Origin: Escherichia coli
Lineage (GTDB): Bacteria; Pseudomonadota; Gammaproteobacteria; Enterobacterales; Enterobacteriaceae
NCBI RefSeq assembly: GCF_013315695.1
Contig: NZ_CP054353.1
Length of the DNA: 64,000 bases
Reading direction: 5' to 3' (one strand)
A model generated the notes under the pieces. That model had not been told where the DNA came from. It saw nothing but the letters and a program-made list of their open reading frames with translations, and made no database searches. Numbering within the stretch: the first letter of the stretch is position 1; every line of letters begins with the position of its first letter. Shown here one piece after another: positions 17,121 through 24,516 of the stretch. A program made the position numbers and the translations under genes.

Positions 17121-17175
17121 GGTGATGCTGCCAACTTACTGATTTAGCGTATGATGGTGTTTTTGAGGTGCTCCA

Positions 17176-17451
17176 GTGGCTTCTGTTTCTATCAGCTGTC
17201 CCTCCTGTTCAGCTACTGACGGAGTGGTGCGTAACGGCAAAAGCACCGCCGGACATCAGCGCTATCTCTGCTCTCACTGCCGTAAAACATGGCAACTGCA
17301 GTTCACTTACACCGCTTCTCAACCCGGTACGCACCAGAAAATCATTGATATGGCCATGAATGGCGTTGGATGCCGGGCAACAGCCCGCATTATGGGCGTT
17401 GGCCTCAACACGATTTTACGTCACTTAAAAAACTCAGGCCGCAGTCGGTAA
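17176..17451 (+). CDS. insA: IS1 InsA
   Basis: 91 aa [35 protein letters not shown]... with zinc-finger and HTH. Confidence 0.9.
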
Positions 17452-17873
17452 CCTCGCGCATACAGCCGGGCAGTGACGTCATCGTCTGCGCGGAAATGGA
17501 CGAACAGTGGGGCTATGTCGGGGCTAAATCGCGCCAGCGCTGGCTGTTTTACGCGTATGACAGGCTCCGGAAGACGGTTGTTGCGCACGTATTCGGTGAA
17601 CGCACTATGGCGACGCTGGGGCGTCTTATGAGCCTGCTGTCACCCTTTGACGTGGTGATATGGATGACGGATGGCTGGCCGCTGTATGAATCCCGCCTGA
17701 AGGGAAAGCTGCACGTAATCAGCAAGCGATATACGCAGCGAATTGAGCGGCATAACCTGAATCTGAGGCAGCACCTGGCACGGCTGGGACGGAAGTCGCT
17801 GTCGTTCTCAAAATCGGTGGAGCTGCATGACAAAGTCATCGGGCATTATCTGAACATAAAACACTATCAATAA
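17370..17873 (+). CDS. insB: IS1 InsB reading frame (expressed as the InsAB' frameshift fusion)
   Basis: 167-aa frame overlapping insA; the A-run TTAAAAAAC frameshift motif lies near the insA end. Confidence 0.85.
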
Positions 17874-17888
17874 GTTGGAGTCATTACC

Positions 17889-19375
17889 GCGCATGAACGT
17901 TCACCTAAACGTTCATCGGGCATCGCAACCACACAGGCATCGTGAATTTTAGGATGCTGCAATAAAATATCTTCTACTTCACGGCTGCTAATATTTTCGC
18001 CGCCGCGGACAATAATATCTTTCTTGCGCCCGGTTATTTTTATATAGCCAGCCTCATCCATGCGGCAGAGATCGCCGCTGTAATACCAGCCTTCTTCATC
18101 CAGCGCACGGGCGGTTAATTCAGGTTCATCAAAATACCCCATAAACACATTGGGGCCACGCGAGGCTTCTTCACCTTCGCAACCTGGCGGTAAGGTCTTG
18201 CGTGCGTCATCGACCACTTTAATCTCTACACCTGCGGCAGCGTAACCATCGGTGTGCATAAAGCGCGACAAAGGATCATCGAGATTCACCACCGCATGCG
18301 GCGAACTTTCTGTGGAACCATAAACACTTAATAATTTAATGCCGCGCTGCTGGCATTCACGCGCCACTTTTTTGGGGATTGTGGTACCGCCGCAAAGAAA
18401 GAAACGCAGCGCTGAAAGGTCTGCGGGCTGTTTCTCTAGTAAATTCAAAAGATCATAGACAAACGGCGTTGCGCCGAGCATACAGGTGCAACGCTGCTGC
18501 TCAAGCAGCGCGAGACACGCAGCAGGAGTGAAAATATCTAACAACACGCTGCGAGCACCAATTAAAAATGGTGCTGTTACGCCATGCAGAAAGCCCGTTG
18601 CGTGACCAAGTGGCGCAGGCATCATAAAGACATCCTGCCAGGTCAGATTCAGCCGCGCGCAATAAGCCCGCTCACTGGCGAGAATATTGTTATGCGTTAG
18701 CATCACGCCCTTTGGCAGACCCTCGGTTCCGGAGGTAAACAGCACCGCGGCTAATTCATCGCCGTGGACCGTTATCGCCGTGGTCAGAGGAGTATTGTCG
18801 GCGATAATCTGACTTAATGAGAGGGAAGAGGTGGCGGGAGCCAGTTTGTCCACGCCGACAATTTGTTGTAGTTGTGGAAGCTGATTTTGCAGTGGCAGGA
18901 TTAAATCTACCGGACGCGTTTGTTTAAACAACGTCGGTGCAAAGAACATTTTTGCCTGACACTTATTGAGCACCCACACCAGTTCTGCTTCCCGCCAGGA
19001 AGGTAACAGCGGCACGGAAACCGCACCGGTTTTCAGGCAGGCAAGATAGATAACGGTAAATTCACACCAGCCTGGCAGTTGAAATGCGATGCGATCGCCT
19101 GATTCAATACCCTTCGCTAACATCCAGTTTGCCAGACAGCTCGCGGCGTGATCGAGCGCGCTATAGGTGTACGTTGCACCATGATTGTCGACCACGGCAA
19201 TTTTGTCTGGCATCGCACGAGCGGTCTGCTGCCAGTAATCGGCCAGTGAAGCATCGCCCCATAACCCTTGCTGACGATACGCCGCACGACGTTGTTCGTT
19301 AAACGTTAATGTCACTTTCATTTTGGACTCTCGAAACAGAACATCAGGCCCGAGATGCGGGCCTGTGGGATGCAT
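17889..19375 (-). pseudogene. fadK: fadK 5' portion (short-chain acyl-CoA synthetase), truncated by IS1
   Basis: Starts MHPTGPHL.../MKVTLTFNEQRRAAYRQQG... (alternative start at 19321); AMP-binding motifs present; reading frame runs into IS1 and stops at 17867. Confidence 0.8.
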
Positions 19376-19377
19376 GA

Positions 19378-19671
19378 TTAGCCGTAGCGAAAATCAATAC
19401 CGAAGGTGCCTGCGGGATATTGCCACTGTTCGAGAATAGTGTTACCGCACAGCACCCGACAGGTGCCGCACTCCAGACAACCGGCGGAATCGAAATGAAT
19501 GTTTCCTGCGTCATCCTGCTTATAAAGTCCGGCAGGGCAGGCTTTCATTAATTTACGGAATTCATTGATATCGGGATTTGCCGCCAAAATGATATGCGGG
19601 TGGCCCTCATCAACATGGAATTTATTGACGCCTAATTTGATGTCGACGTTAACCGTAGCGTTCTGGCTCAT
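19378..19671 (-). CDS. ydiT: Ferredoxin-like protein (FixX-like)
   Basis: 97 aa with Cys cluster; K-12 synteny. Confidence 0.9.
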   Translation of the reverse strand: MSQNATVNVDIKLGVNKFHVDEGHPHIILAANPDINEFRKLMKACPAGLYKQDDAGNIHFDSAGCLECGTCRVLCGNTILEQWQYPAGTFGIDFRYG

Positions 19672-21970: not shown

Positions 21971-22735
21971 TCAGTTCAGGGCTTTCTTCAGATGTTCCAC
22001 CAGCTCGGCAATGGCCTCCGGCGAATCGTTATCGAGAATGATGTGCTTACGTTCTGTTTGCGGCGGTACGCGAATGCCGGTCAGTTCAGCAAGTGGCGCG
22101 CTCTGGCTCCAGCCAATGTCACTTGCCTGCCACTGATTTACCGGTTTTTTACCCGCGCCGAGAATGGCTTTCATCGAAGGAATGCGTGGCATGTTAATAT
22201 CGGAGGTGACGCAGAGCACGGCTGGAACAGAGAGCTCAATAACTTCAACATCATCTTCAAGCGTGCGTTCAATCACCAGTGTATTGCCCTGACGCTGAAT
22301 AGCACTCACTGCATTAATCACCGGAAGTTGCAGAATTTCTCCGACCAGCAAGCCAACCTGCTGGGCATAAAGGTCGCCGGAACCTTCACCAAAGATCAGT
22401 AAATCGAAGCCGATCTTTTCAACTGCTGCCGCCAGCGCCTTTGCGGTATCGAGAGGCAGTGCATGTTCAAGTTGCGCATCCTGCACCAAATACAGGCTAT
22501 GCGGCCCGCGGGATAGCACGTCTTTACGCACTTTCGAGTTCTGCAACAATGAGCCGCCAATGGTCAGCGCGGCTATCTCATCGTCATCTGTTGCAATCTG
22601 GCTTGCAGCTTCAATGGCATTGAGATCGAACTGGCTGATTTTGGCGTCGGCATTGTCGAAATTCAGGGTATATTCTGGAGTGACAACAATGTCCTGTTCT
22701 TCAGGCACCAGCTTAAAGCAGGTTATTATTTTCAT
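21971..22735 (-). CDS. ydiQ: Electron-transfer flavoprotein beta subunit-like
   Basis: 254 aa from internal Met MKIITCFKLVPEEQD...; the 287-aa form in the track is an upstream extension. Confidence 0.9.
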   Translation of the reverse strand: MKIITCFKLVPEEQDIVVTPEYTLNFDNADAKISQFDLNAIEAASQIATDDDEIAALTIGGSLLQNSKVRKDVLSRGPHSLYLVQDAQLEHALPLDTAKALAAAVEKIGFDLLIFGEGSGDLYAQQVGLLVGEILQLPVINAVSAIQRQGNTLVIERTLEDDVEVIELSVPAVLCVTSDINMPRIPSMKAILGAGKKPVNQWQASDIGWSQSAPLAELTGIRVPPQTERKHIILDNDSPEAIAELVEHLKKALN

Positions 22736-23050
22736 GATTTCTCCTGTGAGTCGCATACGGAACCATCTCCGATGGAAGGTAAAAATGGCCTGAAAATAGT
22801 GTGCGATAGCGGTGCGGGGTTTTCGACGGAGCAAGCTGTTTTCCTTGCCAACAATCTTGCAAAAAAAATGCGATCGCTAAAACAAAAGTGCAATTTGCGG
22901 CAATATAGTTATTCCATGACCGTACAATCTTGCATTCAGTGTAAATAATCTTGTTTAGCTCTCGCTAAACGCGGTTGTATAACCGCAATACACGCCGTAT
23001 TTTATCCGGCATATATTGTTTTTGCTTGCTCATGGAATAGGGAGGTTGTC

Positions 23051-23748
23051 ATGTATCAACGCTGTTTTGATAACGCCAGTGAAACGCTGTTTGTCGCCGG
23101 TAAAACGCCACGGCTTTCACGTTTCGCATTTAGCGATGATCCAAAATGGGAGTCCGGACATCACGTTCATGACAATGAAACCGAGCTGATTTACGTCAAG
23201 AAAGGGGTAGCAAGGTTTACCATCGATTCTTCGTTATATGTCGCGCATGCCGATGACATTGTGGTGATAGAACGTGGCAGGCTGCATGCGGTGGCCTCTG
23301 ACGTTAACGATCCGGCAACGACGTGTACCTGTGCGCTGTACGGCTTTCAGTTTCAGGGGGCTGAGGAAAATCAGCTACTGCAACCGCATTCTTGCCCGGT
23401 AATTGCCGCAGGGCAGGGAAAAGAAGTCATTAAAACCTTATTTAATGAGCTAAGTGTGATTTTGCCGCAAAGTAAAAATAGCCAAACATCTTCGTTATGG
23501 GACGCATTTGCCTATACGTTAGCAATTCTTTACTATGAAAACTTTAAAAATGCTTATCGTTCGGAGCAGGGATATATTAAAAAAGATGTTCTGATAAAAG
23601 ATATTCTTTTCTATCTGAATAATAACTATCGCGAAAAAATCACTTTAGAGCAGTTATCGAAAAAGTTTCGTGCCAGCGTCAGTTATATTTGCCATGAATT
23701 TACCAAAGAGTATCGCATTTCCCCTATTAACTATGTTATTCAACGGCG
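23051..23748 (+). pseudogene. ydiP: ydiP 5' portion (AraC-family regulator), interrupted by IS1
   Basis: N-terminal cupin-like domain and start of the AraC HTH region; frame continues into IS1 and stops at 23770. Confidence 0.8.
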
Positions 23749-23803
23749 GGTGATGCTGCCAACTTACTGATTTAGTGTATGATGGTGTTTTTGAGGTGCT
23801 CCA

Positions 23804-24079
23804 GTGGCTTCTGTTTCTATCAGCTGTCCCTCCTGTTCAGCTACTGACGGGGTGGTGCGTAACGGCAAAAGCACCGCCGGACATCAGCGCTATCTCTGCT
23901 CTCACTGCCGTAAAACATGGCAACTGCAGTTCACTTACACCGCTTCTCAACCCGGTACGCACCAGAAAATCATTGATATGGCCATGAATGGCGTTGGATG
24001 CCGGGCAACAGCCCGCATTATGGGCGTTGGCCTCAACACGATTTTACGTCACTTAAAAAACTCAGGCCGCAGTCGGTAA
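23804..24079 (+). CDS. insA: IS1 InsA
   Basis: Protein identical to the copy at 17176-17451. Confidence 0.9.
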
Positions 24080-24501
24080 CCTCGCGCATACAGCCGGGCA
24101 GTGACGTCATCGTCTGCGCGGAAATGGACGAACAGTGGGGCTATGTCGGGGCTAAATCGCGCCAGCGCTGGCTGTTTTACGCGTATGACAGGCTCCGGAA
24201 GACGGTTGTTGCGCACGTATTCGGTGAACGCACTATGGCGACGCTGGGGCGTCTTATGAGCCTGCTGTCACCCTTTGACGTGGTGATATGGATGACGGAT
24301 GGCTGGCCGCTGTATGAATCCCGCCTGAAGGGAAAGCTGCACGTAATCAGCAAGCGATATACGCAGCGAATTGAGCGGCATAACCTGAATCTGAGGCAGC
24401 ACCTGGCACGGCTGGGACGGAAGTCGCTGTCGTTCTCAAAATCGGTGGAGCTGCATGACAAAGTCATCGGGCATTATCTGAACATAAAACACTATCAATA
24501 A
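23998..24501 (+). CDS. insB: IS1 InsB reading frame
   Basis: Protein identical to the copy at 17370-17873. Confidence 0.85.
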
Positions 24502-24516
24502 GTTGGAGTCATTACC

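What the first reader, a model, noticed from the sequence alone, without database searches (positions are those of the whole stretch)
17121..24516. Two directly oriented IS1 copies bracket fadK-5', ydiT, ydiS, ydiR, ydiQ and ydiP-5'
The direct repeats are 5.86 kb apart and could mediate deletion of the whole anaerobic fatty-acid-oxidation-associated cluster by homologous recombination. Both a structural gene and the putative regulator are already broken, which looks like ongoing decay of this pathway. The two copies differ at two or more nucleotides near the left end (for example GACGGAGTG versus GACGGGGTG), so they are not a very recent duplicate of each other.
Basis: partly seen in the sequence, partly recalled or inferred. 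Interest (0 to 1): 0.5.

Follow-up and report, generated by a model that had tools for sequence, protein, structure and literature searches.

The report
Two IS1 insertions flanking ydiQRST
Two copies of the common jumping gene IS1 landed independently in the E. coli genes fadK and ydiP, breaking both and setting up the genes between them for loss; this is real but ordinary, because the same cluster has been hit and deleted by IS1 many times in other E. coli.

Summary
Two 768-bp IS1 elements lie in the same orientation at 17121-17888 (in fadK) and 23749-24516 (in ydiP). They are 5,860 bp apart and differ at two bases.

- **Independent insertions.** Each copy has its own perfect 9-bp target duplication. 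So these are two separate simple insertions that have not recombined, not a misassembly and not an imported composite transposon.
- **Relative age.** The window is clonal with E. coli MSB1_4I and AF3: three SNPs against MSB1_4I over about 62 kb. Both relatives carry the ydiP copy but have an intact fadK. The fadK insertion is absent from all 5,426 complete E. coli genomes, so it is the newer, private event.
- **Donor.** The ydiP copy is the standard IS1A sequence. The fadK copy carries T28C and G103A, a rare variant normally resident at yjiC-uxuR, so it was not copied from its neighbour.
- **Gene damage.** FadK loses its catalytic C-terminus. YdiP loses its second helix-turn-helix. ydiT, ydiS, ydiR, ydiQ, ydiO and ydiF are intact.
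- **Deletion precedent.** The predicted deletion already exists elsewhere. E. coli HS and at least seven other lineages have lost this cluster, nearly all with an IS1 at the scar.

Known biology; low interest.

The parts
17121..17888 (+). IS1 copy A (IS1A-type with T28C and G103A), inserted in fadK. insA is at 17176-17451 and the insB' frame at 17370-17873. The A6C frameshift motif is at IS position 307.
   Evidence: NCBIfam NF033558 IS1 transposase hits on both ORFs. The terminal inverted repeats match at 18 of 23 positions. This junction is absent from 5,426 complete E. coli genomes.
17112..17120 (.). Left copy of the 9-bp target-site duplication of copy A (GCGCATGAA)
   Evidence: The empty site in MSB1_4I holds a single GCGCATGAA (the 9-bp overlap of the two BLAST pieces).
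17889..17897 (.). Right copy of the target-site duplication of copy A (GCGCATGAA)
23749..24516 (+). IS1 copy B, identical to the standard IS1A sequence, inserted in ydiP. insA is at 23804-24079 and the insB' frame at 23998-24501.
   Evidence: The same insertion is present in clone-mates MSB1_4I and AF3.
23740..23748 (.). Left copy of the 9-bp target-site duplication of copy B (TCAACGGCG)
24517..24525 (.). Right copy of the target-site duplication of copy B (TCAACGGCG)
16904..17120 (-). fadK 3' fragment (the last 217 nt, including the TSD). It encodes the lost C-terminus with the PRTASGKIQK motif.
17889..19321 (-). fadK 5' fragment (nt 1-1433 of 1641). The product would be 478 native residues plus 6 residues read from IS1.
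   Evidence: Matches positions 1-477 of the 548-position NF004758 medium-chain fatty-acid--CoA ligase model..
19378..19671 (-). ydiT (ferredoxin-like protein), intact
   Evidence: 100% identical to the annotated MSB1_4I gene. ORF.
19668..20957 (-). ydiS (FAD-dependent oxidoreductase), intact
21013..21951 (-). ydiR (electron transfer flavoprotein alpha subunit), intact
21971..22735 (-). ydiQ (electron transfer flavoprotein beta-type subunit), intact
23051..23748 (+). ydiP 5' fragment (cupin domain plus the first helix-turn-helix; 233 native residues of 303)
24517..24739 (+). ydiP 3' fragment (second AraC-type helix-turn-helix)
   Evidence: AraC-family C-terminal hits..
24782..25933 (-). ydiO (acyl-CoA dehydrogenase), intact, outside the IS1 pair
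25947..27542 (-). ydiF (CoA transferase), intact here. It is interrupted by a further IS1 at window-equivalent 26400-26408 in clone-mate AF3.

Best explanation
Two independent simple transpositions of IS1 hit the ydi locus of an IS1-rich E. coli clone.

- Order of events: copy B entered ydiP first and is shared by clone-mates. Copy A entered fadK later and is private to this genome.
- Donor of A: an IS1 of the rare C28/A103 sublineage, whose usual resident copy sits at yjiC-uxuR. It was not copied from copy B.
- Effect on genes: the insertions cut off the catalytic C-terminus of the acyl-CoA synthetase FadK and split the DNA-binding domain of the AraC-type protein YdiP.
- Current state: 768 bp of 99.7% identical direct repeat now brackets 5.86 kb holding ydiT, ydiS, ydiR and ydiQ. 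No exchange has happened yet, because each copy still has its own matching target duplication.
- Inferred future: RecA-dependent exchange between the copies, or IS1 adjacent deletion, can remove 6,628 bp. That would leave one IS1 flanked by GCGCATGAA on the left and TCAACGGCG on the right. Unequal exchange could instead amplify the segment.

The structure, the order of events and the donor lineage are shown. Loss of FadK and YdiP function, and the future deletion, are inferred.
For: - Structure: two full-length IS1 elements, each with a perfect but different 9-bp TSD.
- Empty fadK site: MSB1_4I has a single GCGCATGAA at the fadK site and is otherwise identical apart from 3 SNPs over window 2223-64000.
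- Copy A is private: junction A is in 0 of 5,426 genomes.
- Copy B is shared: exact junction B is in MSB1_4I, AF3 and 1368KP only.
- Sequence types: copy B equals the BLR(DE3) IS1A sequence. Copy A shares both of its variants with the MSB1_4I copy next to uxuR.
- C28 variant: present in 261 genomes, median one copy, mostly at yjiC.
- Truncated products.
- Natural IS1-scarred deletions of the same cluster: E. coli HS, GF31, Z226-5/6, TUM14664/102651, PM7, GmM062 and 100416.
- Laboratory precedent: recurrent deletion between an IS1A pair 11.5 kb apart, and preferential recombination between close IS copies (PMC5009759).
- Within-host loss of the ydiQRST-fadK region between two isolates from one infant (preprint 10.64898/2026.03.06.710075).
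Against: - No reads are available, so junction A rests on a single assembly.
- No copy 100% identical to A exists in the collection. The MSB1_4I copy with both variants has an extra A262T, so the actual donor in this genome is unseen.
- Loss of function of the truncated proteins is inferred from family knowledge, not tested.
- The role of YdiP as regulator of ydiQRST-fadK has no experimental support that I found.
- With at least 40 IS1 copies per chromosome, about one direct pair within 6.6 kb is expected by chance. So the pairing need not mean anything about the pathway.
Confidence: 0.9

Rival explanations
1. The arrangement is an assembly artefact: a single IS1 wrongly placed twice, with the two base differences being sequencing errors.
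For: Junction A is found in no other genome. IS copies are a classic source of misassembly.
Against: Each copy has its own perfect 9-bp target duplication in otherwise collinear unique sequence. Misjoining does not create that. Copy B is confirmed by two independent complete assemblies. The two variant bases of copy A recur together in another IS1 of an independent assembly, and C28 occurs in 261 genomes. So they are real alleles, not errors.
Confidence: 0.02
2. The 7.4-kb unit is a Tn9-like composite transposon (IS1-cargo-IS1) that inserted or can move as one piece.
For: Two intact IS1 elements in direct orientation bracket a cargo, the same layout as Tn9. Tn9 itself is recalled from my own knowledge.
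Against: The interior and both flanks are in native chromosomal order, as in 5,364 of 5,426 genomes. The outer flanks (GCGCATGAA and TCAACGGCG) do not match, whereas each IS has its own TSD. A clone-mate has copy B alone. So the unit was built in place by two insertions. No copy of the unit was seen elsewhere.
Confidence: 0.02
3. Copy A arose by local hopping from copy B, the known bias of IS1A towards insertions within a few kb of an existing copy.
For: IS1A shows strong proximal bias: 21 of 233 new insertions fell within 5 kb of an existing copy, against 2.6 expected (PMC5009759). The ydiF copy in AF3 is B-type and about 1.9 kb from B, which fits hopping.
Against: Copy A differs from B at two positions. 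Both changes are shared with a distant IS1 of the same clone, which points to a different donor.
Confidence: 0.04
4. The repeated hits reflect positive selection for switching off the ydi anaerobic fatty-acid pathway in host-associated E. coli, rather than neutral decay plus IS1 target preference.
For: Among three clone-mates there are three IS1 insertions in the locus in all: one shared (ydiP) and two separate second hits (fadK here, ydiF in AF3). At least eight independent deletion alleles exist in other lineages. HS, Z226-5 and TUM14664 carry extra lesions in ydiF. The region was lost within a host.
Against: The cluster is kept at 80% coverage or more in 5,364 of 5,426 genomes (98.9%). Exact-site reuse by different IS1 variants shows target hot spots. 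The sequence around site B is 37-39% G+C, the kind IS1 prefers (PMC5009759). Genome-wide IS1 differences between the clone-mates could not be counted, so no enrichment test was possible.
Confidence: 0.2

Closest known systems
IS1A of Escherichia coli (IS1 family insertion sequence)
   Same: 768 bp long, with 23-bp imperfect terminal inverted repeats. It has insA and insB' with the A6C -1 frameshift site and makes 9-bp target duplications. Copy B is base-for-base identical to an IS1A copy of BLR(DE3), and copy A differs from it by two bases.
   Different: Nothing structural. Copy A's exact sequence (IS1A plus T28C and G103A only) is not found in any of 5,426 complete genomes; the nearest copies have one mismatch.
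The IS1A pair flanking about 11.5 kb of the CP4-6 prophage in E. coli K-12
   Same: Directly repeated IS1A copies a few kb apart bracket dispensable genes. That pair deleted recurrently: 14 events in 12 mutation-accumulation lines (PMC5009759).
   Different: Here the spacing is 5.86 kb. The cargo is a core metabolic cluster rather than prophage DNA. Both IS copies also interrupt genes.
The ydi-locus deletion allele of E. coli HS
   Same: A single IS1A, in the same orientation, joins the last 40 nt of fadK to ydiP at a point 33 bp upstream of site B. It has no target duplication. This is the product expected from an arrangement like the window's.
   Different: The HS end points are not the window's insertion sites. 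HS lacks the accessory genes between ppsA and fadK, and its ydiF is frameshifted. Whether HS arose by IS1 x IS1 exchange or by adjacent deletion from one IS1 cannot be told.
Tn9 (IS1-flanked composite transposon)
   Same: Two IS1 elements in direct orientation around a cargo. Tn9 is recalled from my own knowledge.
   Different: This unit was built in place from two separate insertions. It has no outer target duplication and there is no evidence it has moved.

Membership tests
IS1 family insertion sequence | Element of about 768 bp bounded by imperfect terminal inverted repeats of about 23 bp | tested here: met
   Both copies are 768 bp. The left and right terminal repeats match at 18 of 23 positions.
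IS1 family insertion sequence | insA and an overlapping insB' frame joined by a -1 frameshift at an A6C motif; the products match the IS1 transposase | tested here: met
   insA is 91 aa and insB' 167 aa. AAAAAAC lies at IS position 307. NF033558 covers model positions 1-81 (InsA) and 75-199 (InsB', 145.6 bits against a cut-off of 100). PGAP names the identical copy in MSB1_4I an IS1A family transposase with a programmed frameshift.
IS1 family insertion sequence | 8-9-bp direct duplication of the target on insertion | tested here: met
   GCGCATGAA flanks copy A and TCAACGGCG flanks copy B. The empty fadK site holds one copy of the 9-mer.
IS1-flanked composite transposon (Tn9-like) | Two IS1 copies bracketing a cargo | tested here: met
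IS1-flanked composite transposon (Tn9-like) | Target duplication at the outer ends of the whole unit, and presence of the unit at a non-native site | tested here: not met
   The outer flanks differ and the inner flanks complete each IS's own TSD. The cargo is in native synteny.
ydiQRST-fadK / ydiP / ydiO-ydiF locus of E. coli (anaerobic fatty-acid degradation associated) | Gene order and sequence identity with the annotated E. coli locus | tested here: met
   100% identity to MSB1_4I and 97.7% to K-12 MG1655 over the interval, with the same annotated genes. The FadK fragment scores 959 bits on NF004758.
ydiQRST-fadK / ydiP / ydiO-ydiF locus of E. coli (anaerobic fatty-acid degradation associated) | Role in anaerobic fatty-acid use, and YdiP acting as its regulator | not testable with these tools
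   The roles of FadK and YdiO are taken from a review (PMC3896788). ydiO has limited functional information (PMC6412132). I found no evidence on what YdiP regulates.

The most novel reading that the evidence does not exclude
The ydi locus is a preferred and possibly selected target for IS1-driven inactivation in host-associated E. coli. After the first hit (ydiP), the rest of the pathway erodes quickly and repeatedly: fadK in this genome, ydiF in clone-mate AF3, and full IS1-scarred deletions in HS and others. Exact-nucleotide IS1 hot spots in fadK and ydiP guide the process.
Probability: 0.2. Interest if true: 0.4.

Novelty: already known. Interest (0 to 1): 0.15.

Why it matters
This matters little beyond strain-level annotation. 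In this isolate fadK and ydiP should be called pseudogenes, and the ydiQRST segment should be flagged as structurally unstable, open to both deletion and amplification.

The modest wider point is that the window catches an intermediate two-IS1 state of a gene-loss route. That route has already run to completion in E. coli HS and several other lineages. The locus also contains IS1 hot spots that are reused at the same nucleotide by different IS1 variants. That makes it a convenient natural example of IS-driven pathway erosion, not a new mechanism.

Tried and rejected
- **Misassembly:** rejected on the two separate TSDs, the empty site in MSB1_4I, and the recurrence of both variant bases in an independent assembly.
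- **Composite-transposon origin:** rejected on synteny and the non-matching outer flanks.
- **Local hopping from B to A:** rejected on sequence.
- **Early misreading:** I first took the ORFs left of fadK for a frameshifted ppsA. They are a four-gene accessory island, and ppsA lies further left and is intact in the relative.
- **A x B deletion product:** it cannot exist in the collection, because junction A itself has 0 hits.
- **IS1 copy number:** I could not count IS1 copies in the clone beyond 'at least 40', because the search keeps only 40 pieces per record. So no formal test was possible of whether ydi is hit more often than chance.
- **Donor copy:** I could not find the exact donor of copy A, since only 64 kb of this genome is available.
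- **Sequence type:** I could not assign a sequence type or phylogroup.
- **Tool problem:** several fetched loci (L003, L006, L009, L010) were not written to the Python data folder. They were handled by refetching (L012) or with DNA alignment.
- **Not searched:** the plasmid and phage collections. The metagenome and protein-database tools were not needed.
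Full report
**1. The observation**

The repeat finder and a direct base-by-base comparison show two 768-bp elements in the same orientation, at 17121-17888 (copy A) and 23749-24516 (copy B). They are separated by 5,860 bp. They differ at only two positions: IS position 28 (C in A, T in B) and position 103 (A in A, G in B).

The IS1 left end occurs only at these two places in the 64-kb window, with none expected by chance.

Both copies have the full IS1 anatomy:
- 23-bp imperfect terminal repeats, matching at 18 of 23 positions
- insA of 91 aa
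- an overlapping insB' frame of 167 aa
- the AAAAAAC frameshift site at position 307
- matches to the NCBIfam IS1 transposase model

Position 28 lies between the left terminal repeat and insA. Position 103 is synonymous, so the InsA proteins are identical.

**2. Two separate insertions, not yet recombined**

Copy A is flanked by a perfect 9-bp duplication GCGCATGAA, and copy B by TCAACGGCG. Three things follow:
- Each element arrived by its own simple transposition.
- No exchange between the copies has happened since. An exchange or inversion would separate the matching 9-mers.
- The unit did not arrive as a composite transposon, because the outer flanks do not match.

**3. Where the window comes from, and the order of events**

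The interval is 100% identical to two complete E. coli chromosomes: MSB1_4I (rectal swab, Australia) and isolate AF3, record NZ_OZ547117 (blood culture, UK).

Over window 2223-64000 the window differs from MSB1_4I by three SNPs and by copy A only. So these genomes belong to one clone.

Both relatives carry copy B in ydiP with the same junctions, but have an uninterrupted fadK. At the fadK site MSB1_4I has a single GCGCATGAA, which is the empty site.

The left junction of copy A is absent from all 5,426 complete E. coli genomes. The four apparent hits for the right junction are IS1 elements elsewhere in fadK.

So B is the older, shared insertion and A is the newer, private one.

**4. Where copy A came from**

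Copy B is identical to a standard IS1A copy, the one next to phoE in BLR(DE3). It is also identical to the ydiP copy in strain 1368KP.

No genome in the collection holds a copy identical to A. In MSB1_4I, however, the IS1 between a yjiC (DUF2686) fragment and uxuR carries both T28C and G103A, plus one private change, A262T.

A 41-bp probe that only C28 copies can match finds 261 genomes. These usually have one copy, mostly at yjiC.

So the two differences are real alleles of a rare, old IS1 sublineage. Copy A was donated by that sublineage, not by its neighbour B and not by the bulk of IS1A copies in the clone. This rules out sequencing error. It also argues against 'local hopping' from B, although IS1A has a documented bias for nearby insertion (PMC5009759).

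**5. What is broken and what is not**

- **fadK** (minus strand) is split after nt 1433 of 1641. The product keeps 478 of 546 native residues and matches model positions 1-477 of 548 of the medium-chain fatty-acid--CoA ligase family. It loses the C-terminal segment containing PRTASGKIQK. By general knowledge of adenylate-forming enzymes, this motif carries the catalytic lysine. Loss of activity is therefore likely, but it is an inference.
- **ydiP** is split after nt 698 of 912. It keeps 233 of 303 residues, and the second AraC-type helix-turn-helix is on the detached fragment.
- **ydiT, ydiS, ydiR, ydiQ, ydiO and ydiF** are identical to genes annotated as intact in MSB1_4I.

A review describes FadK and YdiO as part of anaerobic fatty-acid degradation (PMC3896788). 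Functional information on ydiO is limited (PMC6412132). That YdiP regulates the divergent operon is only an assumption from gene arrangement.

**6. Population comparison**

The 5.84-kb interior is core sequence. Of 5,426 genomes, 5,364 hold at least 80% of it in one place. For 39 records the best match is only 60-80% identical. The one such record inspected matches only the fixB paralogue of ydiR, so I take these records to lack the cluster.

A synthetic query joining the ppsA 3' end to ydiP-3'/ydiO/ydiF pulled out genomes in which these flanks have come together. The alleles inspected are listed below.

| Genome(s) | Element at the joint | Left end | Right end / remark |
|---|---|---|---|
| E. 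coli HS (four assemblies) | single IS1A, same orientation as here, no TSD | last 40 nt of fadK | ydiP, 33 bp upstream of site B; ydiF frameshifted |
| GF31 | IS1A plus IS3 | just downstream of ppsA; no fadK remnant annotated | ydiP remnant |
| Z226-5 (Z226-6 appears the same) | IS1A | fadK hot spot (see below) | 456-nt ydiP remnant; extra IS1 in ydiF |
| TUM14664 (102651 appears related) | IS1 | fadK hot spot | 576-nt ydiP remnant; IS903B in ydiF |
| PM7 | IS1A | fadK hot spot | within ydiO |
| GmM062 | IS1X4 | fadK hot spot | within ydiO |
| 100416 | IS1B, inverted | fadK hot spot | next to ydiF; ydiO gone |
| 19M19 | no IS | ydiT | ydiO |

Five alleles share the same 381-nt fadK remnant, with an IS1 end at exactly the same nucleotide (window 18055|18056). 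They differ in IS1 variant or orientation and in their right end points.

The fixed IS1 junction with variable far end is the pattern of IS1 adjacent deletion, which I recall from my own knowledge of IS1.

So IS1-scarred loss of this very cluster is recurrent in nature. The window shows a two-IS1 state from which the same outcome can follow.

Two outside observations agree with this. In the laboratory, a direct IS1A pair 11.5 kb apart deleted 14 times in 12 mutation-accumulation lines, and nearly half of IS x IS deletions were 3 kb or less (PMC5009759). A recent preprint reports that the later of two isolates from one infant lacks an approximately 11.5-kb region described as the ydiQRST-fadK operon (10.64898/2026.03.06.710075).

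**7. 'Ongoing decay' or chance?**

For decay:
- Clone-mate AF3 has a different second hit, an IS1 of B-type sequence inverted in ydiF. Its TSD is GACTTCAGC, equivalent to window 26400-26408.
- So two of three clone-mates independently gained a second IS1 in the same 10-kb locus after ydiP was hit.
- Several deletion lineages also carry extra lesions in ydiF.

For chance or target preference:
That alone predicts about one direct pair within 6.6 kb.
- MSB1_4I has another IS1 pair about 1 kb apart near uxuR.
- ydiP site B is reused in the unrelated strain 1368KP, whose background is 97.7% identical.
- About nine other insertion positions in ydiP are implied by the different piece spacings.
- The sequence around site B is 37-39% G+C, against 49% for the window. 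This fits the known preference of IS1 for AT-rich targets (PMC5009759).

I could not count genome-wide IS1 differences between the clone-mates, so enrichment was not tested. My reading is relaxed selection plus hot spots in an IS1-rich clone. Positive selection for loss is possible but unproven.

**8. Comparison with known things, and verdict**

The elements are IS1A, and every defining feature tested was met. The layout resembles Tn9 but fails the tests for a composite transposon that has moved. The nearest analogues are the K-12 CP4-6 IS1A pair, as an unstable direct pair, and the E. coli HS allele, as the finished deletion.

Nothing here is a new kind of element or mechanism. I score interest at 0.15.

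Noticed in passing
window 18055-18056 (in fadK); L008, L009, L010, L013, L014: An exact-nucleotide IS1 hot spot. Five unrelated or distantly related genomes (PM7, Z226-5, TUM14664, GmM062, 100416) have an IS1 end at this same position. They carry at least three different IS1 variants (IS1A, IS1X4, IS1B) in both orientations. Each is followed by a different deletion end point in ydiP, ydiO or ydiF.
   Followed up: partly
window 23740-23748 (ydiP site B); L005: Strain 1368KP has a different background: 97.7% identity and no accessory island. It has an identical IS1A at exactly the same ydiP site and in the same orientation. Its left target copy reads TCAACGGCT rather than TCAACGGCG. About nine other IS1 positions in ydiP are implied in other genomes by the different piece spacings.
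   Followed up: partly
L011 10884-11651 (equivalent to window 26400-26408, ydiF): Clone-mate AF3 (NZ_OZ547117, UK blood culture) carries an extra IS1 in ydiF. It has the B-type sequence, is inverted relative to copy B, and has the TSD GACTTCAGC. The two copies form an inverted IS1 pair around ydiO.
   Followed up: yes
window 1-2222: This is the integrase end of a prophage-like element. It has a tyrosine recombinase ORF at 586-1710 and a small helix-turn-helix ORF at 342-686. It is inserted at the ihfA terminator, next to btuC. It is absent from clone-mate MSB1_4I but present at about 99.9% identity in 117 genomes, including O55:H7 CB9615.
   Followed up: partly
window about 13206-16853: A four-gene accessory island lies between ppsA and fadK: an anion permease, a 2-hydroxyacid dehydrogenase, a YhcH/YjgK/YiaL family protein and an SDR oxidoreductase. 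HS, PM7 and 1368KP-type genomes lack it; there fadK directly follows ppsA. The SNP at 16569 against MSB1_4I lies in the SDR gene.
   Followed up: no
L004 1501-2268 (MSB1_4I, yjiC-uxuR): The rare IS1 variant with C at position 28 sits at the yjiC (DUF2686)-uxuR site in most of the 261 genomes that have it, normally as a single copy. It looks like an old resident copy that seldom transposes, yet its sublineage is the likely source of the fadK insertion. MSB1_4I also has a second, frameshifted IS1 about 1 kb away.
   Followed up: partly
L007 4128-5722 (E. coli HS ydiF); L013, L014: Genomes that have lost ydiQRST-fadK often carry further damage in the remaining ydiF gene. It is frameshifted in HS, interrupted by IS1 in Z226-5, and interrupted by IS903B in TUM14664.
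   Followed up: no
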